Shown: piece after piece, positions 33,473 through 39,400 of the stretch
Layout: every line of letters starts with the position of its first letter
Numbering within the stretch: position 1 is the stretch's first letter
Assembly (NCBI RefSeq): GCF_003334355.1
Contig: NZ_QOWP01000001.1
DNA length: 64,000 nt
Reading direction: 5' to 3' (one strand)
Source of the DNA: Escherichia coli
Lineage (GTDB): Bacteria; Pseudomonadota; Gammaproteobacteria; Enterobacterales; Enterobacteriaceae
Program-made: the position numbers

Positions 33473-36400
33473 AGATTCAGAATTTACTTCACCTGCAGAC
33501 GAGTTCCGTAAAGCCGGACACGAAGTGATTACTATTGAAAAACAAGCGGGTAAAACGGTGAAAGGCAAAAAAGGAGAAGCCAGCGTGACCATCGATAAAT
33601 CCATCGATGAAGTGACGCCTGCGGAGTTTGATGCCCTGCTGCTACCGGGCGGCCATTCACCGGATTATCTGCGTGGGGACAACCGTTTTGTCACCTTTAC
33701 CCGTGATTTTGTGAATAGTGGCAAACCGGTGTTTGCCATCTGTCACGGCCCGCAGTTGCTGATCAGCGCCGATGTGATTCGGGGGCGCAAACTGACCGCA
33801 GTTAAACCGATCATTATTGATGTTAAAAATGCGGGCGCGGAATTTTACGATCAGGAAGTCGTGGTTGATAAAGATCAGCTGGTTACCAGCCGGACACCGG
33901 ACGATCTGCCAGCGTTTAACCGCGAGGCGTTACGCCTGCTCGGTGCCTGAGTCGCGTAGCCAAATCATTTTTTTACCAAAGCCCAGCGTGTTGTCGGTGA
34001 ATTTGATTTCATCGAGCCGGATTTCCCACTCCGGGGCCGACAGCATTCTGGCAACCGGAAAGCGACGATTGTACGCCTTGCGCGCGAGGTCGCTTTCCTC
34101 ACCTTCCAGCCTGCGGATCTCACCTTTAAACTGCACACCGCGAATTAACGCTACCGTTTTCGGCTGACCGTTTACCGTTCCGGCAACTGCCGCCTGCGGC
34201 CCGCTCATCTGCGCGTGGCGCGTTTTTTCTTCCGTCAAAATGTAGAAGGCGACTTTCTGCGCATCAAAAAGATAAAAGGCATTAGCGCACCAGAGTTCCC
34301 CTTCCTGCTGCACACACCAGGTGACAACATGTTGTTTTGCTAGCCAACGGCTGATGGCGATGAGTGTTTCCATTGCTGTTCTCTTTTATACTGTGGGCCT
34401 GACCTTAACATGCGATGCAGACGATGACACCCTGGTTTCTTTACTTGATCCGTACCGCCGACAATAAGCTTTATACCGGGATCACCACGGATGTCGAACG
34501 CCGCTATCAGCAGCACCAAAGCGGCAAAGGGGCGAAAGCACTGCGCGGGAAAGGAGAACTGACGCTGGCGTTTTCTGCTCCAGTGGGCGATCGTTCGCTG
34601 GCGTTACGGGCGGAATATCGCGTTAAGCAACTGACCAAACGGCAAAAAGAGCGTCTGGTAGCGGAAGGCGCAGGGTTTGCAGAGCTGTTAAGCAGTCTGC
34701 AAACCCCGGAGATTAAAAGCGATTGAAATGCTCGTGATACTCAACCAGGCCGGTAACGCCATTCAGCGCGTCATCCGCTAAACGATGTACCTGGAAGGCG
34801 CTTTCAGTGCCCGGCCAGCGGCAACGCAGATCGTGATGCGCTGCCAGTTCAAAGCCGAAACGACTGTACAGCGCCGGATCGCCCAGCGTCACCACTGCGG
34901 CATAGCCGAACTCATTAAGCGAATCGAGTCCTTCATAGACCAGTTGGCGTGCCAGCCCCTGTCCACGGTATTTTTCATCAACCGCCAACGGTGCCATGCC
35001 GACCCATTGCAGGTCTTCGCCCTGCACATCAACCGGACTAAATGCCACATAGCCAATGACCTGACCTTCGTCATCTGTCGCCACCAGCCCCAGCGTCAGA
35101 AAGCCATCTTCACGCAGATCGTGAACCAGCTTCGCTTCCGCATCACTTTCGAATGAGCGACGCAGCAGGGCATCAATACCCGGCGCATCAATGGGAATTT
35201 CTACTCGAATTAGCATGGTTCACCTACCGATGTCTGTTTGGTTTCAGGCGCGGTTTTCATTCCCGCCTCAACAAAATCCGCCAGTTGCAGCAGCATCATG
35301 CGTAAGGCTTTCGGCATTTGCTCCAGTTCAATGGCGTCCATCAGGTTTTTCACATACAGCCCCAGCTCCGTATCGCCTTCAATCACCAGCCGACGCTGGA
35401 AGAAGAGCGTATCCGGATCTTGTTTACGCGCCGCAATCATCAGCAGATCGCTGGCGTCGGCACTAAAACTCACATCAGCTTGCGCGTTCTGGCTGACCAC
35501 CAGTTTGCCATTCACCACCGAGGTAAACCATTGCAGGTCAATATCACGCACATGAATACTTAACCAGCGGCCTTCAAGAAACTCCAGCTCGCCATCATCC
35601 AGCGCCTGACGGAATTGCCAGCTTAAGACCTGCTCAAGAACCTGGCGTTTTAGCGCAAATGGCGTCAGTTTTACCGGTACACTCAACAGAGATGGCCCCA
35701 AATGCACAATACGGGAACGCAGTTTATCCAACACGAGTTTTACTCCCTGTTTCAACAATCATCCTATTTTGCCATATCAGAAAAATAACATAGCGGTATA
35801 AATCAACAATTCCATATGAAATTGCTGCTACCACCAATACAACTTTAACTGCCTTAAATCAAAAATTGTCGCAGCAAGGTTAACTAAAATCCCAGTTCGT
35901 TAACATTTTTGCGTTTTGATAGCGCAACCTTCAGGAAAAATTATGGAGCTGCTCTGCCCTGCCGGAAATCTCCCGGCGCTTAAGGCGGCCATCGAAAACG
36001 GCGCAGATGCTGTTTATATCGGGCTAAAAGATGATACCAATGCCCGTCACTTCGCCGGCCTTAACTTTACCGAGAAAAAATTGCAGGAAGCGGTGAGTTT
36101 TGTCCATCAACATCGCCGCAAACTTCACATCGCGATTAACACTTTTGCGCATCCGGACGGTTACGCCCGTTGGCAGCGCGCCGTGGATATGGCGGCGCAG
36201 CTGGGTGCCGACGCGCTGATCCTCGCCGACCTCGCCATGCTGGAATACGCCGCCGAGCGTTATCCGCATATTGAGCGCCACGTATCGGTGCAGGCTTCGG
36301 CGACCAATGAAGAGGCGATTAACTTTTATCATCGCCATTTTGACGTTGCTCGCGTGGTGCTGCCGCGCGTGTTGTCGATTCATCAGGTGAAACAACTGGC

Positions 36401-39400
36401 ACGGGTCACACCTGTACCACTGGAAGTCTTTGCTTTCGGCAGCCTGTGCATTATGTCGGAAGGTCGTTGCTATCTGTCGTCGTATCTGACGGGTGAGTCG
36501 CCCAACACCGTAGGCGCGTGTTCTCCGGCCCGTTTCGTGCGCTGGCAACAAACGCCGCAGGGGCTGGAATCCCGCCTGAACGAAGTGCTGATCGACCGTT
36601 ATCAGGACGGCGAAAACGCAGGTTATCCGACGCTATGTAAAGGGCGTTATCTGGTGGACGGCGAGCGCTATCACGCGCTGGAAGAACCAACCAGTCTCAA
36701 TACCCTGGAACTGCTGCCGGAGTTAATGGCGGCGAATATTGCTTCGGTGAAAATTGAAGGCCGCCAGCGTAGCCCGGCGTATGTCAGCCAGGTGGCGAAA
36801 GTCTGGCGTCAGGCTATCGACCGTTGTAAGGCCGATCCGCAAAACTTTGTACCGCAAAGCGCGTGGATGGAGACGCTCGGGTCGATGTCCGAAGGCACGC
36901 AAACCACTCTTGGCGCATATCACCGTAAATGGCAGTGAGAAAAGCAATGAAATATTCCTTAGGGCCAGTGCTGTGGTACTGGCCAAAAGAGACGCTGGAA
37001 GAATTTTATCAGCAGGCCGCCACCAGCAGCGCCGACGTGATTTATCTTGGTGAAGCGGTATGCAGCAAGCGTCGGGCAACCAAAGTTGGCGACTGGCTGG
37101 AGATGGCAAAATCGCTCGCCGGGAGTGGTAAGCAGATTGTGCTCTCCACGCTGGCGCTGGTGCAGGCATCATCTGAACTGGGCGAACTGAAACGCTATGT
37201 TGAGAACGGTGAGTTTCTGATTGAAGCCAGCGATCTCGGCGTGGTGAATATGTGCGCTGAACGCAAACTGCCGTTCGTCGCCGGGCACGCGCTGAACTGC
37301 TACAACGCGGTGACACTGAAAATATTGCTCAAACAGGGCATGATGCGCTGGTGTATGCCAGTGGAGCTTTCCCGCGACTGGCTGGTGAATCTGCTTAATC
37401 AGTGCGATGAGCTGGGCATTCGTAACCAGTTTGAAGTGGAAGTCCTGAGCTACGGTCATCTGCCGCTGGCCTACTCCGCCCGCTGCTTTACCGCGCGTTC
37501 GGAAGACCGCCCGAAAGATGAGTGTGAAACCTGCTGCATTAAGTATCCGAACGGGCGCAACGTGCTGTCGCAGGAAAACCAACAAGTGTTTGTACTCAAT
37601 GGCATTCAGACCATGAGCGGCTACGTTTACAACCTCGGTAACGAGCTGGCATCCATGCAGGGCCTGGTTGATGTGGTCCGCCTGTCACCGCAGGGTACTG
37701 ACACTTTCGCGATGCTCGACGCCTTCCGCGCTAATGAAAATGGCGCTGCACCACTGCCGTTGACGGCGAACAGCGACTGTAACGGCTACTGGCGGCGGCT
37801 GGCAGGACTGGAGCTGCAAGCCTAAGTAAATAGCTCACTTTGTTAACAACTTTAACTACTCTTTAATGCAGTATTAAAGATTAATCGGTAACAAAGTGAG
37901 CTGTTATGACTGATAAAACCATTGCGTTTTCGCTACTCGATCTGGCCCCCATTCCCGAAGGTTCTTCAGCGCGAGAAGCATTCTCCCACTCTCTCGATCT
38001 CGCCCGTCTGGCTGAAAAGCGCGGCTATCATCGCTACTGGCTGGCAGAACACCACAATATGACTGGCATTGCCAGTGCTGCCACGTCGGTATTGATCGGC
38101 TATCTGGCGGCGAATACCACCACGCTGCATCTGGGGTCTGGCGGCGTGATGTTGCCTAACCACTCACCGTTGGTCATTGCAGAACAGTTCGGCACGCTTA
38201 ATACACTCTATCCGGGGCGAATCGATTTGGGGCTGGGTCGTGCTCCGGGTAGTGACCAACGGACAATGATGGCGCTACGTCGTCATATGAGCGGCGATAT
38301 TGATAATTTCCCCCGCGATGTGGCGGAGCTGGTGGACTGGTTTGACGCCCGCGATCCCAATCCGCATGTGCGCCCGGTACCAGGCTATGGCGAGAAAATC
38401 CCCGTGTGGTTGTTAGGCTCCAGCCTTTACAGCGCGCAACTGGCGGCGCAGCTTGGTCTGCCGTTTGCGTTTGCCTCACACTTCGCGCCGGATATGCTGT
38501 TCCAGGCGCTGCATCTTTATCGCAGCAACTTCAAACCGTCAGCACGGCTGGAAAAACCATACGCGATGGTGTGCATCAATATTATCGCCGCCGACAGCAA
38601 CCGCGACGCTGAATTTCTGTTTACCTCAATGCAGCAAGCCTTTGTGAAGCTGCGCCGTGGCGAAACCGGGCAACTGCCGCCGCCGATTCAAAATATGGAT
38701 CAGTTCTGGTCACCGTCTGAGCAGTATGGCGTGCAGCAGGCGCTGAGTATGTCGTTGGTAGGTGATAAAGCGAAAGTGCGTCATGGCTTGCAGTCGATCC
38801 TGCGCGAAACCGACGCCGATGAGATTATGGTCAACGGGCAGATTTTCGACCACCAGGCGCGGCTGCATTCGTTTGAGCTGGCGATGGATGTTAAGGAAGA
38901 GTTGTTGGGATAGTGTGTCTTAACGCGGGAAGCCTTATCCGAGCTGGCAACGCTGTCCTACATAGACCTGATAAGCGAAGCGCATCAGGCATTGTGTAGG
39001 CAGCAGAAATGTCGGATAAGGCACCGCTGATTACTGATACACCGGCAGTAAATTAAAGCTCGATAAAATATGCACCAGTGCGTTGCCGACGCCAAACACC
39101 AGAATCAGCGCAATCATCGGCTTGCCACCCCAGACGCGGAATTTCGGGCTGCCAAAGCGTTTACGCGATGCACGGGCTAACAGCGCCGGAACAATTGCCG
39201 CCCAGATGGTAGCCGCTAAACCAGCATAACCAATGGCGTACAGGAATCCGTTCGGGAACAACAGCCCCCCCACAACTGGCGGGGCAAAGGTCAGCAATGC
39301 CGTTTTCAAGCGGCCCACAGCCGAGTCGTCGAAACCAAACAGATCTGCCAGATAGTCAAACAAACCCAGCGTTACGCCGAGGAACGAACTCGCTACCGCA

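What the first reader, a model, noticed from the sequence alone, without database searches (positions are those of the whole stretch)
35210..37825. ubiT / ubiU-ubiV divergent locus (O2-independent ubiquinone biosynthesis)
A GTG-initiated SCP2-domain gene is divergent from two tandem U32-peptidase-family genes whose coding regions nearly abut (ubiU stop at 36938, ubiV ATG at 36947). This matches the yhbT/yhbU/yhbV arrangement. I could not find a convincing FNR half-site pair (TTGAT-N4-ATCAA) by eye in the 184-bp divergent spacer.
Basis: partly seen in the sequence, partly recalled or inferred. Interest (0 to 1): 0.25.

Follow-up and report, generated by a model that had tools for sequence, protein, structure and literature searches.

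The report
E. coli ubiT / ubiUV anaerobic ubiquinone locus

Summary
Window 35210-37825 carries ubiT (minus strand, GTG start at 35734, 174 aa, SCP2 domain). It is divergent from ubiU (35943-36938) and ubiV (36947-37825), which are 8 nt apart. The DNA is 100% identical to RefSeq E. coli chromosomes and is present in 5425 of 5426 complete genomes. All three proteins pass their curated NCBIfam equivalog cut-offs, and all eight published Fe-S cysteine ligands are present.

One number is wrong: the spacer is 208 bp, not 184. The 184 counts from an upstream in-frame TTG.

The two experimentally validated FNR sites, F1 (35849-35862) and F2 (35793-35806), each match TTGAT-N4-ATCAA at only 7 of 10 positions, a level that chance also reaches. 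Each lies about 41 nt upstream of its promoter's start site, and both are conserved in Vibrionales and Enterobacterales.

Function, regulation and distribution are already published (mBio 2019 and 2023, PNAS 2024, ISME J 2024). ArcA has been tested and does not affect UbiT.

The only small addition here is that the non-consensus half of F1 (CTGCC) is itself strongly conserved.

Verdict: already known, low interest.

The parts
35210..35734 (-). ubiT (yhbT) coding sequence: 174 aa, GTG start, SCP2 lipid-binding domain. It is the accessory factor of O2-independent ubiquinone synthesis.
   Evidence: ORF and codons. RefSeq annotation at the same position. NCBIfam NF047962 scores 153.6 bits against a cut-off of 46.9. 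Pfam SCP2 at 1.1e-19. A Shine-Dalgarno-like GGGAG lies 8-9 nt upstream of the GTG.
34713..35216 (-). yhbS / hqbA (GNAT acetyltransferase, Hfq-binding). It is the second gene of the ubiT operon, and its ATG overlaps the ubiT stop codon (ATGCTAA, 7-nt overlap).
   Evidence: Co-transcription with ubiT and the absence of a role in UQ synthesis are reported in PMC10470549. Hfq binding is reported in PMC10710024. It lies next to ubiT on the same strand in 52/52 loci.
35735..35942 (.). Divergent regulatory spacer: 208 bp, 34% G+C against 51% for the window.
35793..35806 (-). FNR site F2 (TTGATTTATACCGC), the activator site of the anaerobic promoter ubiTp2.
   Evidence: Exact match to the published site. 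Mutating it abolishes anaerobic induction of UbiT (PMC10470549). A TTGAT at the same distance from the ubiT start (-72 to -82) is present in Edwardsiella and Vibrionaceae.
35766..35771 (-). -10-like hexamer CAAAAT of ubiTp2. The transcription start is inferred near 35759-35760, at or next to the upstream in-frame TTG at 35758.
   Evidence: Geometry read from the sequence, combined with the published statement that F2 lies 33 nt upstream of the ubiTp2 start. The position is an inference.
35849..35862 (+). FNR site F1 (CTGCCTTAAATCAA on the plus strand, published as TTGATTTAAGGCAG), the activator site of ubiUVp.
   Evidence: Exact match. It is also the site predicted under the 2006 FNR ChIP-chip peak. 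Mutating it abolishes UbiV production without O2. CTGCC-N4-ATCAA-N21-23-TAnnnT lies upstream of ubiU in 72/105 loci. 75 of the 77 occurrences of CTGCC-N4-ATCAA in 0.98 Mb of fetched DNA lie there.
35885..35890 (+). -10 hexamer TAAAAT of ubiUVp, 22 nt after F1. This puts the centre of F1 at about -41.5 to -42.5, the class II activator geometry.
   Evidence: The published transcription start is 36 nt downstream of F1. The same 22-nt spacing to a TAaaAT is seen across 84 distinct sequences.
35834..35862 (-). Inferred constitutive promoter ubiTp1: -35-like TTGATT (35857-35862, which is the perfect half of F1), a 17-nt spacer, then -10-like TATTGG (35834-35839). The start would be near 35825-35826.
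   Evidence: Read from the sequence. It fits the published statement that F2 lies 19 nt downstream of ubiTp1. The hexamer assignment is my inference.
35943..36938 (+). ubiU (yhbU) coding sequence: 331 aa, U32-family [4Fe-4S] protein with Cys169, 176, 193 and 232.
   Evidence: NF047963 scores 560.5 bits against a cut-off of 440. PF01136 at 8.7e-68. The cysteine ligands are reported in PMC6747719.
36947..37825 (+). ubiV (yhbV) coding sequence: 292 aa, U32-family [4Fe-4S] protein with Cys39, 180, 193 and 197. It starts 8 nt after the ubiU stop codon.
   Evidence: NF047965 scores 363.1 bits against a cut-off of 275. PF01136 at 1.6e-09. The cysteine ligands are reported in PMC6747719.

Best explanation
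This is the E. coli ubiT-hqbA / ubiU-ubiV divergent locus, which supplies the O2-independent branch of ubiquinone-8 biosynthesis.

UbiU and UbiV form a heterodimer in which each subunit carries one [4Fe-4S] cluster. The pair is required for the three ring hydroxylations that UbiI, UbiH and UbiF perform with O2 in air. Under anoxia the oxygen atoms come from prephenate. UbiT, an SCP2 lipid-binding protein, is the accessory factor thought to hold the hydrophobic intermediates, as UbiJ does in the aerobic pathway.

The 208-bp spacer holds three promoters:
- ubiUVp is activated by FNR bound at F1.
- ubiTp2 is activated by FNR bound at F2.
- ubiTp1 is constitutive.

Both FNR sites have one perfect TTGAT half and one non-consensus half, and each is centred about 41 nt upstream of its start site (class II geometry).

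Shown experimentally in the literature: gene function, Fe-S ligands, the heterodimer, prephenate as O donor, and FNR dependence with site mutations. Shown here: identity, family membership, presence of the ligands, location and geometry of the sites, and their conservation. Inferred: the exact -10 and -35 hexamers, and the lipid-carrier role of UbiT.
For: **Identity**
- 100% DNA identity to annotated E. coli ubiT/ubiU/ubiV, present in 5425 of 5426 complete genomes.
- NCBIfam equivalogs are above their cut-offs for all three proteins.
- SCP2 and U32 domains are found.
- UbiU C169/C176/C193/C232 and UbiV C39/C180/C193/C197 are all present. These are the residues whose mutation removes the clusters (PMC6747719).

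**Function and regulation (literature)**
- Prephenate is the O donor (PMC10990095).
- F1 and F2 are found verbatim at 35849-35862 and 35793-35806. Mutating them abolishes anaerobic UbiV or UbiT induction (PMC10470549).
- An FNR ChIP-chip peak lies at yhbT/yhbU (PMC1802558).

**Comparison across 120 loci from other species**
- ubiV follows ubiU wherever downstream sequence is available, usually 8-35 nt later.
- ubiT is always divergent from ubiU.
- F1-type and F2-type sites sit at a conserved distance from a -10 hexamer.
Against: Nothing contradicts the identification.

By sequence alone the FNR sites cannot be told from chance: they score 7/10, and 178 of 307 tiles of the window score as well. 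The regulatory part therefore rests on published experiments and on conservation, not on motif strength.

The biochemical mechanism of the hydroxylation has not been reconstituted in vitro according to the papers read. No solved structure matches UbiU or UbiV by sequence.
Confidence: 0.97

Rival explanations
1. Beyond FNR, a second factor or a specific architectural constraint acts at the ubiUV promoter. On this reading the non-consensus distal half of F1 (AAAC-CTGCC) is conserved because something other than generic weak FNR binding reads it.
For: CTGCC-N4-ATCAA followed 21-23 nt later by TAnnnT lies upstream of ubiU in 72/105 loci from Escherichia, Leminorella, Edwardsiella, Vibrio, Photobacterium, Aliivibrio, Enterovibrio and Grimontia, against about 0 in shuffles.

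75 of the 77 occurrences of CTGCC-N4-ATCAA in 0.98 Mb lie there.

Flanking positions that were not used to pick the sites (AAA at -13 to -11, T at -4, A at -2) are also informative.

If selection were only for low affinity, many different degenerate half-sites would be expected.
Against: CTGCC keeps the T and G of TTGAT. By my recollection these are the main FNR contact bases, so it may simply be a tuned FNR half-site.

Most loci are Vibrionaceae and are not independent.

The sites used for the logo were chosen with at least 3/5 matches to CTGCC, which inflates those five columns.

Alteromonadales-type loci carry other variants.

Mutating only the ATCAA half is enough to abolish expression, so FNR suffices as the activator.

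No candidate second factor was identified. A by-eye comparison with the IscR type 2 motif (recalled from memory) did not fit.
Confidence: 0.2
2. ArcA co-regulates the locus, as the first reader suggested checking.
For: A 9/10 match to a TGTTA-N6-TGTTA direct repeat (motif recalled from memory) lies at 35775-35790 on the minus strand, between F2 and the ubiTp2 -10. Only 6 of 307 tiles of the window reach that score.
Against: 23 of 500 shuffles of this AT-rich spacer also reach it. Flag-UbiT levels were unaffected by deleting arcA, while they depended on fnr (PMC10710024). The ubiUVT regulation paper does not mention ArcA at all (0 occurrences).
Confidence: 0.04
3. UbiU and UbiV are what the old annotation said (U32 collagenase-type peptidases), or they are the RNA-hydroxylating U32 paralogues TrhP or RlhA.
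For: Both carry the Peptidase_U32 Pfam domain. UbiU also hits the TrhP model at 1.9e-48.
Against: The TrhP model scores 165 bits for UbiU and 23 bits for UbiV against a cut-off of 534, whereas the UbiU and UbiV equivalogs are passed.

Genetics and biochemistry assign them to UQ hydroxylation (PMC6747719, PMC10990095).
Confidence: 0.01

Closest known systems
E. coli K-12 ubiT (yhbT) / ubiU (yhbU) / ubiV (yhbV) locus, as described by Pelosi et al. 2019 (PMC6747719) and Arias-Cartin et al. 2023 (PMC10470549)
   Same: Everything tested is the same: gene order, orientation, start codons, Fe-S cysteines, the F1 and F2 sequences, and the primer-derived wild-type spacer sequence. The DNA is 100% identical to several RefSeq E. 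coli chromosomes.
   Different: Nothing detected. The window is simply an E. coli chromosome segment.
ubiTUV loci of other Pseudomonadota (four published architectures; FNR motifs upstream in 87% of 1566 loci; PMC11707229)
   Same: This locus has the published architecture with ubiT divergent from ubiUV and an FNR site between them. In the 120 loci fetched here ubiT is always divergent and ubiV always follows ubiU.
   Different: In most Vibrionaceae a PAS-GGDEF-EAL gene of about 2 kb separates ubiT from ubiU. E. coli, Edwardsiella, the Vibrio halioticoli group and Alteromonadales-type loci have them directly adjacent.
TrhP (YegQ) and RlhA (YdcP), the U32-family prephenate-dependent RNA hydroxylases
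   Same: They share the U32 domain and conserved four-cysteine motifs, and are linked to O2-independent, prephenate-dependent hydroxylation.
   Different: Their substrates are tRNA U34 and 23S rRNA C2501, not a prenylated phenol. UbiU and UbiV fall far below the TrhP model cut-off and act as a heterodimer with an SCP2 partner.
UbiJ, the SCP2 accessory factor of the aerobic UQ pathway
   Same: [quoted passage not shown]
   Different: UbiJ is needed only for the O2-dependent pathway. UbiT serves the O2-independent pathway and the anaerobic-to-aerobic transition.

Membership tests
UbiT (NCBIfam NF047962, SCP2_dom_UbiT) | Score above the curated equivalog cut-off | tested here: met
   153.6 bits against a cut-off of 46.9, covering 2-120 of 120 profile positions.
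UbiT | SCP2 domain occupying most of a protein of about 174 aa | tested here: met
   PF02036 at residues 43-133, 1.1e-19. Weak matches to solved SCP2 structures such as 1c44.
UbiT | Binds lipid or UQ intermediates and is required for anaerobic UQ8 | not testable with these tools
   Published genetics for the identical E. coli gene (PMC6747719).
UbiU (NCBIfam NF047963) | Score above the curated equivalog cut-off, full length | tested here: met
   560.5 bits against a cut-off of 440, covering 1-331 of 331.
UbiU | CX6CX16CX38C [4Fe-4S] ligands C169, C176, C193, C232 | tested here: met
   Cysteines are at 169, 176, 193 and 232. The motif is given in PMC6747719.
UbiV (NCBIfam NF047965) | Score above the curated equivalog cut-off | tested here: met
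   363.1 bits against a cut-off of 275. It also scores 440.4 against 283 for NF011991.
UbiV | CXnCX12CX3C ligands C39, C180, C193, C197 | tested here: met
   Cysteines are at 39, 180, 193 and 197.
UbiU-UbiV system | ubiU and ubiV adjacent and co-oriented, with ubiT at the same locus | tested here: met
   8-nt gap. The same arrangement is seen in all fetched loci that have downstream sequence.
UbiU-UbiV system | Heterodimer formation and prephenate-dependent hydroxylation | not testable with these tools
   Published for the identical proteins. No solved structure is found by sequence.
Peptidase family U32 (Pfam PF01136) | Pfam domain match | tested here: met
   UbiU 8.7e-68. UbiV 1.6e-09, a partial match.
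TrhP (NF011996), the paralogous U32 hydroxylase | Score above the curated cut-off of 534 bits | tested here: not met
   165.4 bits for UbiU and 23 bits for UbiV.
FNR-activated class II promoter | Good match to TTGAT-N4-ATCAA | tested here: inconclusive
   F1 and F2 each score 7/10, with one perfect half-site. That is not above chance.
FNR-activated class II promoter | Site centred near -41.5 relative to the transcription start | tested here: met
   F1 is followed by 22 nt and then TAAAAT. F2 is followed by 21-22 nt and then CAAAAT/AAAATA. This agrees with the published start sites 36 and 33 nt downstream, and the same spacing is seen across species.
FNR-activated class II promoter | FNR binding in vivo and loss of induction when the site is mutated | not testable with these tools
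   Published: ChIP-chip, and reporter and chromosomal site mutants.
ArcA regulon | ArcA direct-repeat site and ArcA-dependent expression | tested here: inconclusive
   One 9/10 repeat at 35775-35790 is weakly above background. Published data show UbiT is unaffected by arcA deletion.

The most novel reading that the evidence does not exclude
The 'bad' half of the ubiUV FNR site (AAAC-CTGCC) may be a specifically selected element, conserved between Enterobacterales and Vibrionales. It would either be a precisely tuned low-affinity FNR half-site that restricts expression of the O2-labile UbiUV enzyme to strict anoxia, or the recognition site of an unidentified second factor.
Probability: 0.2. Interest if true: 0.3.

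Novelty: already known. Interest (0 to 1): 0.06.

Why it matters
The locus matters biologically. It lets facultative anaerobes make ubiquinone without O2, using prephenate as an organic oxygen donor, and the ubiquinone made this way can be used for nitrate respiration and pyrimidine synthesis. All of that is published for this exact sequence, so finding it in an E. coli window adds nothing new.

The finding is useful mainly as a calibration case:
- Its inability to spot FNR sites reflects a real property of the sites: one perfect half and one non-consensus half.
- Consensus or position-weight-matrix scanning alone would not have settled the question.

Tried and rejected
1. **Consensus scan for TTGATNNNNATCAA.** At 3 mismatches the window gives 305 hits against 258 expected by chance, and the spacer's best score is reached by 58% of same-sized tiles. 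This cannot locate the sites. Three perfect pentamers in the spacer are only mildly unusual (96 of 2000 shuffles).

2. **ArcA motif scans (motifs recalled from memory).** One 9/10 direct repeat was found. I rejected it as a regulator because the published delta-arcA result is negative.

3. **Sigma-70 and terminator scan of 34600-39100.** The counts are no higher than in shuffles. The only promoter-like hit in the spacer (TTGATA-17-AATTAT, 35916-35944) overlaps the ubiU start codon and lies downstream of the mapped start site, so it is probably spurious. No terminator-like site lies between ubiV and yhbW.

4. **PDB sequence search.** There is no solved relative of UbiU or UbiV at E <= 0.001. 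UbiT matches only distant SCP2 structures.

5. **The longer TTG-initiated ubiT ORF (35758).** I rejected this start. RefSeq uses the GTG, a GGGAG Shine-Dalgarno sequence precedes the GTG, the inferred ubiTp2 start site falls at about 35759, and homologues align from the GTG.

6. **By-eye comparison of F1 with an IscR type 2 motif and a sigma-54 promoter (both recalled from memory).** Neither fitted, and I ran no tool test.

I did not run structure prediction or the large protein database searches, because identity to a characterised locus was already established.
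Full report
**1. The observation**

The ORF table and the sequence confirm every coordinate in the finding.
- A 525-nt ORF runs on the minus strand from a GTG at 35734 to a TAA ending at 35210 (174 aa).
- A 996-nt ORF runs on the plus strand from ATG 35943 to TGA 36938 (331 aa).
- An 879-nt ORF runs from ATG 36947 to TAA 37825 (292 aa).
- The two plus-strand genes are separated by 8 nt.

One figure is wrong. 184 bp is the distance from an in-frame TTG at 35758, which the mechanical ORF list uses as the start.

**2. What it is**

A megablast of 35100-37900 against all complete E. coli genomes gives 100% identity to several chromosomes. It gives at least 95% identity over at least 80% of the query in 5425 of 5426 genomes. 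In one identical chromosome RefSeq annotates, at exactly these positions, ubiT, ubiU and ubiV. The flanking genes are yhbS, yhbQ, yhbP, yhbO and yraR on one side and yhbW and mtr on the other.

Independent family tests agree.
- The three proteins pass the curated NCBIfam equivalog cut-offs for UbiT (153.6 against 46.9 bits), UbiU (560.5 against 440) and UbiV (363.1 against 275).
- The paralogous TrhP model is far below its cut-off: 165 and 23 bits against 534.
- Pfam finds SCP2 in UbiT and Peptidase_U32 in UbiU and UbiV.
- The cysteines shown by mutagenesis to hold the two [4Fe-4S] clusters are all present: UbiU C169, C176, C193, C232 and UbiV C39, C180, C193, C197 (PMC6747719).

**3. How it works (from the literature on this same sequence)**

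Three proteins are required for ubiquinone synthesis without O2 (PMC6747719).
- UbiU and UbiV co-purify as a heterodimer, and each subunit carries one [4Fe-4S] cluster.
- They are needed for the O2-independent ring hydroxylations.
- UbiT is proposed to play the lipid-presenting role that UbiJ plays aerobically.

The oxygen atoms come from prephenate, shown by genetics and 18O labelling (PMC10990095). UQ made anaerobically can be used for nitrate respiration and pyrimidine synthesis (PMC10470549).

No PDB chain matches UbiU or UbiV by sequence. By sequence search, then, no structure of either is available.

**4. The FNR question**

The best matches in the spacer are 7/10. 178 of 307 same-sized tiles of the window and 410 of 500 shuffles reach that score. 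At three mismatches the window has 305 hits against 258 expected.

The sites are nevertheless real.
- ChIP-chip placed FNR at yhbT/yhbU in 2006, with a predicted site identical to 35849-35862 (PMC1802558).
- Arias-Cartin et al. defined F1 (TTGATTTAAGGCAG) and F2 (TTGATTTATACCGC). I find these verbatim at 35849-35862 and 35793-35806 on the minus strand.
- Mutating F1 abolishes UbiV production without O2.
- Mutating F2 abolishes anaerobic induction of UbiT but leaves a basal level that comes from a distal constitutive promoter, ubiTp1.
- The two sites act independently of each other.

From the sequence:
- F1 is followed by 22 nt and then TAAAAT (35885-35890).
- F2 is followed by 21-22 nt and then CAAAAT/AAAATA (about 35765-35771, minus strand).
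- With the published start sites (36 and 33 nt downstream of the sites), both sites are centred about 41 nt upstream of the start. This is the class II activation geometry.

The inferred ubiTp2 start (about 35759) falls at the upstream in-frame TTG. Together with the GGGAG Shine-Dalgarno sequence before the GTG, this supports the GTG start.

I also infer that the perfect half of F1, read on the minus strand (TTGATT, 35857-35862), serves as the -35 of ubiTp1. A TATTGG -10 lies 17 nt downstream of it. This is inference only.

**5. Related sequences**

A degenerate DNA pattern for the UbiU peptide CIMSEGRCYLSSY returned 120 loci from the species-representative genome set. They are mostly Vibrionaceae, plus Escherichia, Edwardsiella, Leminorella, Shewanella, Colwellia and other Alteromonadales-type genomes.

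Gene arrangement in these loci:
- ubiV follows ubiU wherever the locus extends far enough, with a gap that is usually 8-35 nt.
- ubiT, when present on the fragment, is always divergent from ubiU.
- ubiT is followed on the same strand by a yhbS homologue in 52/52 cases.

Upstream of ubiU:
- The exact pattern CTGCC-N4-ATCAA-N21-23-TAnnnT occurs in 72/105 loci spanning both Enterobacterales and Vibrionales, against essentially zero in shuffles.
- 75 of the 77 occurrences of CTGCC-N4-ATCAA in the 0.98 Mb fetched lie there. The other two are in loci where the ubiU alignment is truncated.
- The consensus is AAAcCTGCCTtAnATCAA-N22-TAaaAT.
- A caveat on that consensus: sites were chosen with at least 3/5 matches to CTGCC. 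Only the flanks, the spacer and the -10 are therefore unbiased columns.

Upstream of ubiT, a TTGAT sits 72-82 nt before the start codon in E. coli, Edwardsiella and Vibrionaceae, again about 22 nt before a -10-like hexamer.

That FNR motifs are conserved upstream of ubiU and ubiT is already published: 87% of 1566 ubiTUV loci, and 96% for the divergent architecture (PMC11707229). Anaerobic induction of yhbUV in Dickeya and Pectobacterium was seen in 2012 (PMC3349551).

The only point I did not find stated is that the non-consensus half of F1 is itself conserved.

**6. ArcA**

A crude direct-repeat scan (motif from memory) gives one 9/10 match at 35775-35790. 6 of 307 tiles and 23 of 500 shuffles reach that score. 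However, UbiT protein levels depend on fnr and are unaffected by arcA deletion (PMC10710024). I treat ArcA control as unsupported.

**7. Verdict**

The locus is already known in gene content, biochemistry, regulation and phylogenetic distribution, so interest is low.

The most novel reading not excluded is that the conserved CTGCC half-site reflects specific selection, either for tuned FNR affinity or for a second factor. That would be a minor refinement of a known regulatory scheme.

Noticed in passing
window 35849-35853, and loci L002-L121 upstream of ubiU: The non-consensus half of FNR site F1 (CTGCC, preceded by AAAC) is conserved from E. coli to Vibrio, Photobacterium, Aliivibrio, Enterovibrio and Grimontia. 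72/105 loci carry CTGCC-N4-ATCAA-N21-23-TAnnnT, and 75 of its 77 occurrences in 0.98 Mb lie upstream of ubiU. Alteromonadales-type loci use other variants.
   Followed up: partly
window 34713-35216 (-), overlapping ubiT at 35210-35216: The yhbS/hqbA ATG overlaps the ubiT stop codon (ATGCTAA). The ubiT-yhbS pair is adjacent and co-oriented in 52/52 loci from Enterobacterales and Vibrionaceae. Yet published work finds no role for yhbS in UQ synthesis and instead an Hfq-binding role. Why the pairing is so conserved is unexplained.
   Followed up: partly
window 35732-35734, and ubiT starts in loci L003-L120: The non-ATG start of ubiT is conserved: 41 GTG, 4 TTG and 1 ATG among homologues whose alignment begins at residue 1. 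By contrast ubiU (109/109) and yhbS (51/51) always start with ATG, and ubiV does in 104 of 106.
   Followed up: partly
L020 947-2986 (+), and 78 other Vibrionaceae loci: In most Vibrionaceae a 679-aa PAS-GGDEF-EAL protein gene sits between ubiT and ubiU, on the ubiU strand. ubiUV keeps its own F1-type site downstream of that gene.
   Followed up: partly
window 35857-35862 (-) and 35834-35839 (-): Read on the minus strand, the perfect TTGAT half of F1 forms a -35-like TTGATT. It lies 17 nt upstream of a TATTGG -10-like hexamer, which fits the published position of the constitutive ubiTp1 start. FNR bound at F1 would sit on the -35 of ubiTp1.
   Followed up: no
window 35775-35790 (-): An ArcA-like direct repeat TGTTATTTTTCTGATA (9/10 to TGTTA-N6-TGTTA) lies between F2 and the ubiTp2 -10. 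It is weakly above background, and published data show no ArcA effect on UbiT.
   Followed up: partly
window 35916-35920 and 35916-35944 (+): A third perfect TTGAT lies downstream of the ubiUV transcription start. It forms the only sigma-70 consensus hit in the spacer (TTGATA-17-AATTAT) and overlaps the ubiU ATG. It varies among Escherichia species (TTGAC in E. albertii and Escherichia sp. E1V33), so it is probably not functional.
   Followed up: no
window 35879-35884 and 35899-35904 (+): Two GTTAAC palindromes 20 bp apart bracket the ubiUV -10 and start site. The first, as part of AAGGTTAACTA, is also present in Leminorella (L094).
   Followed up: no
window 2368-2744 (-), 45685-45856 (+), 46086-46200 (-), 47713-47783 (-), 52482-52582 (-), 52674-52747 (-), 56533-56616 (-), 63269-63390 (-): Rfam gathering-threshold hits elsewhere in the window: RNase P RNA, SraG sRNA, the S15 leader, naRNA4, the rimP leader, two tRNAs and the greA leader. 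All are expected for this E. coli chromosomal region.
   Followed up: no
window 35100-37900 compared with the E. coli genome collection: One of 5426 complete E. coli genomes lacks a match to the locus. One genome has two copies, and one of all the places found is on a plasmid record.
   Followed up: no
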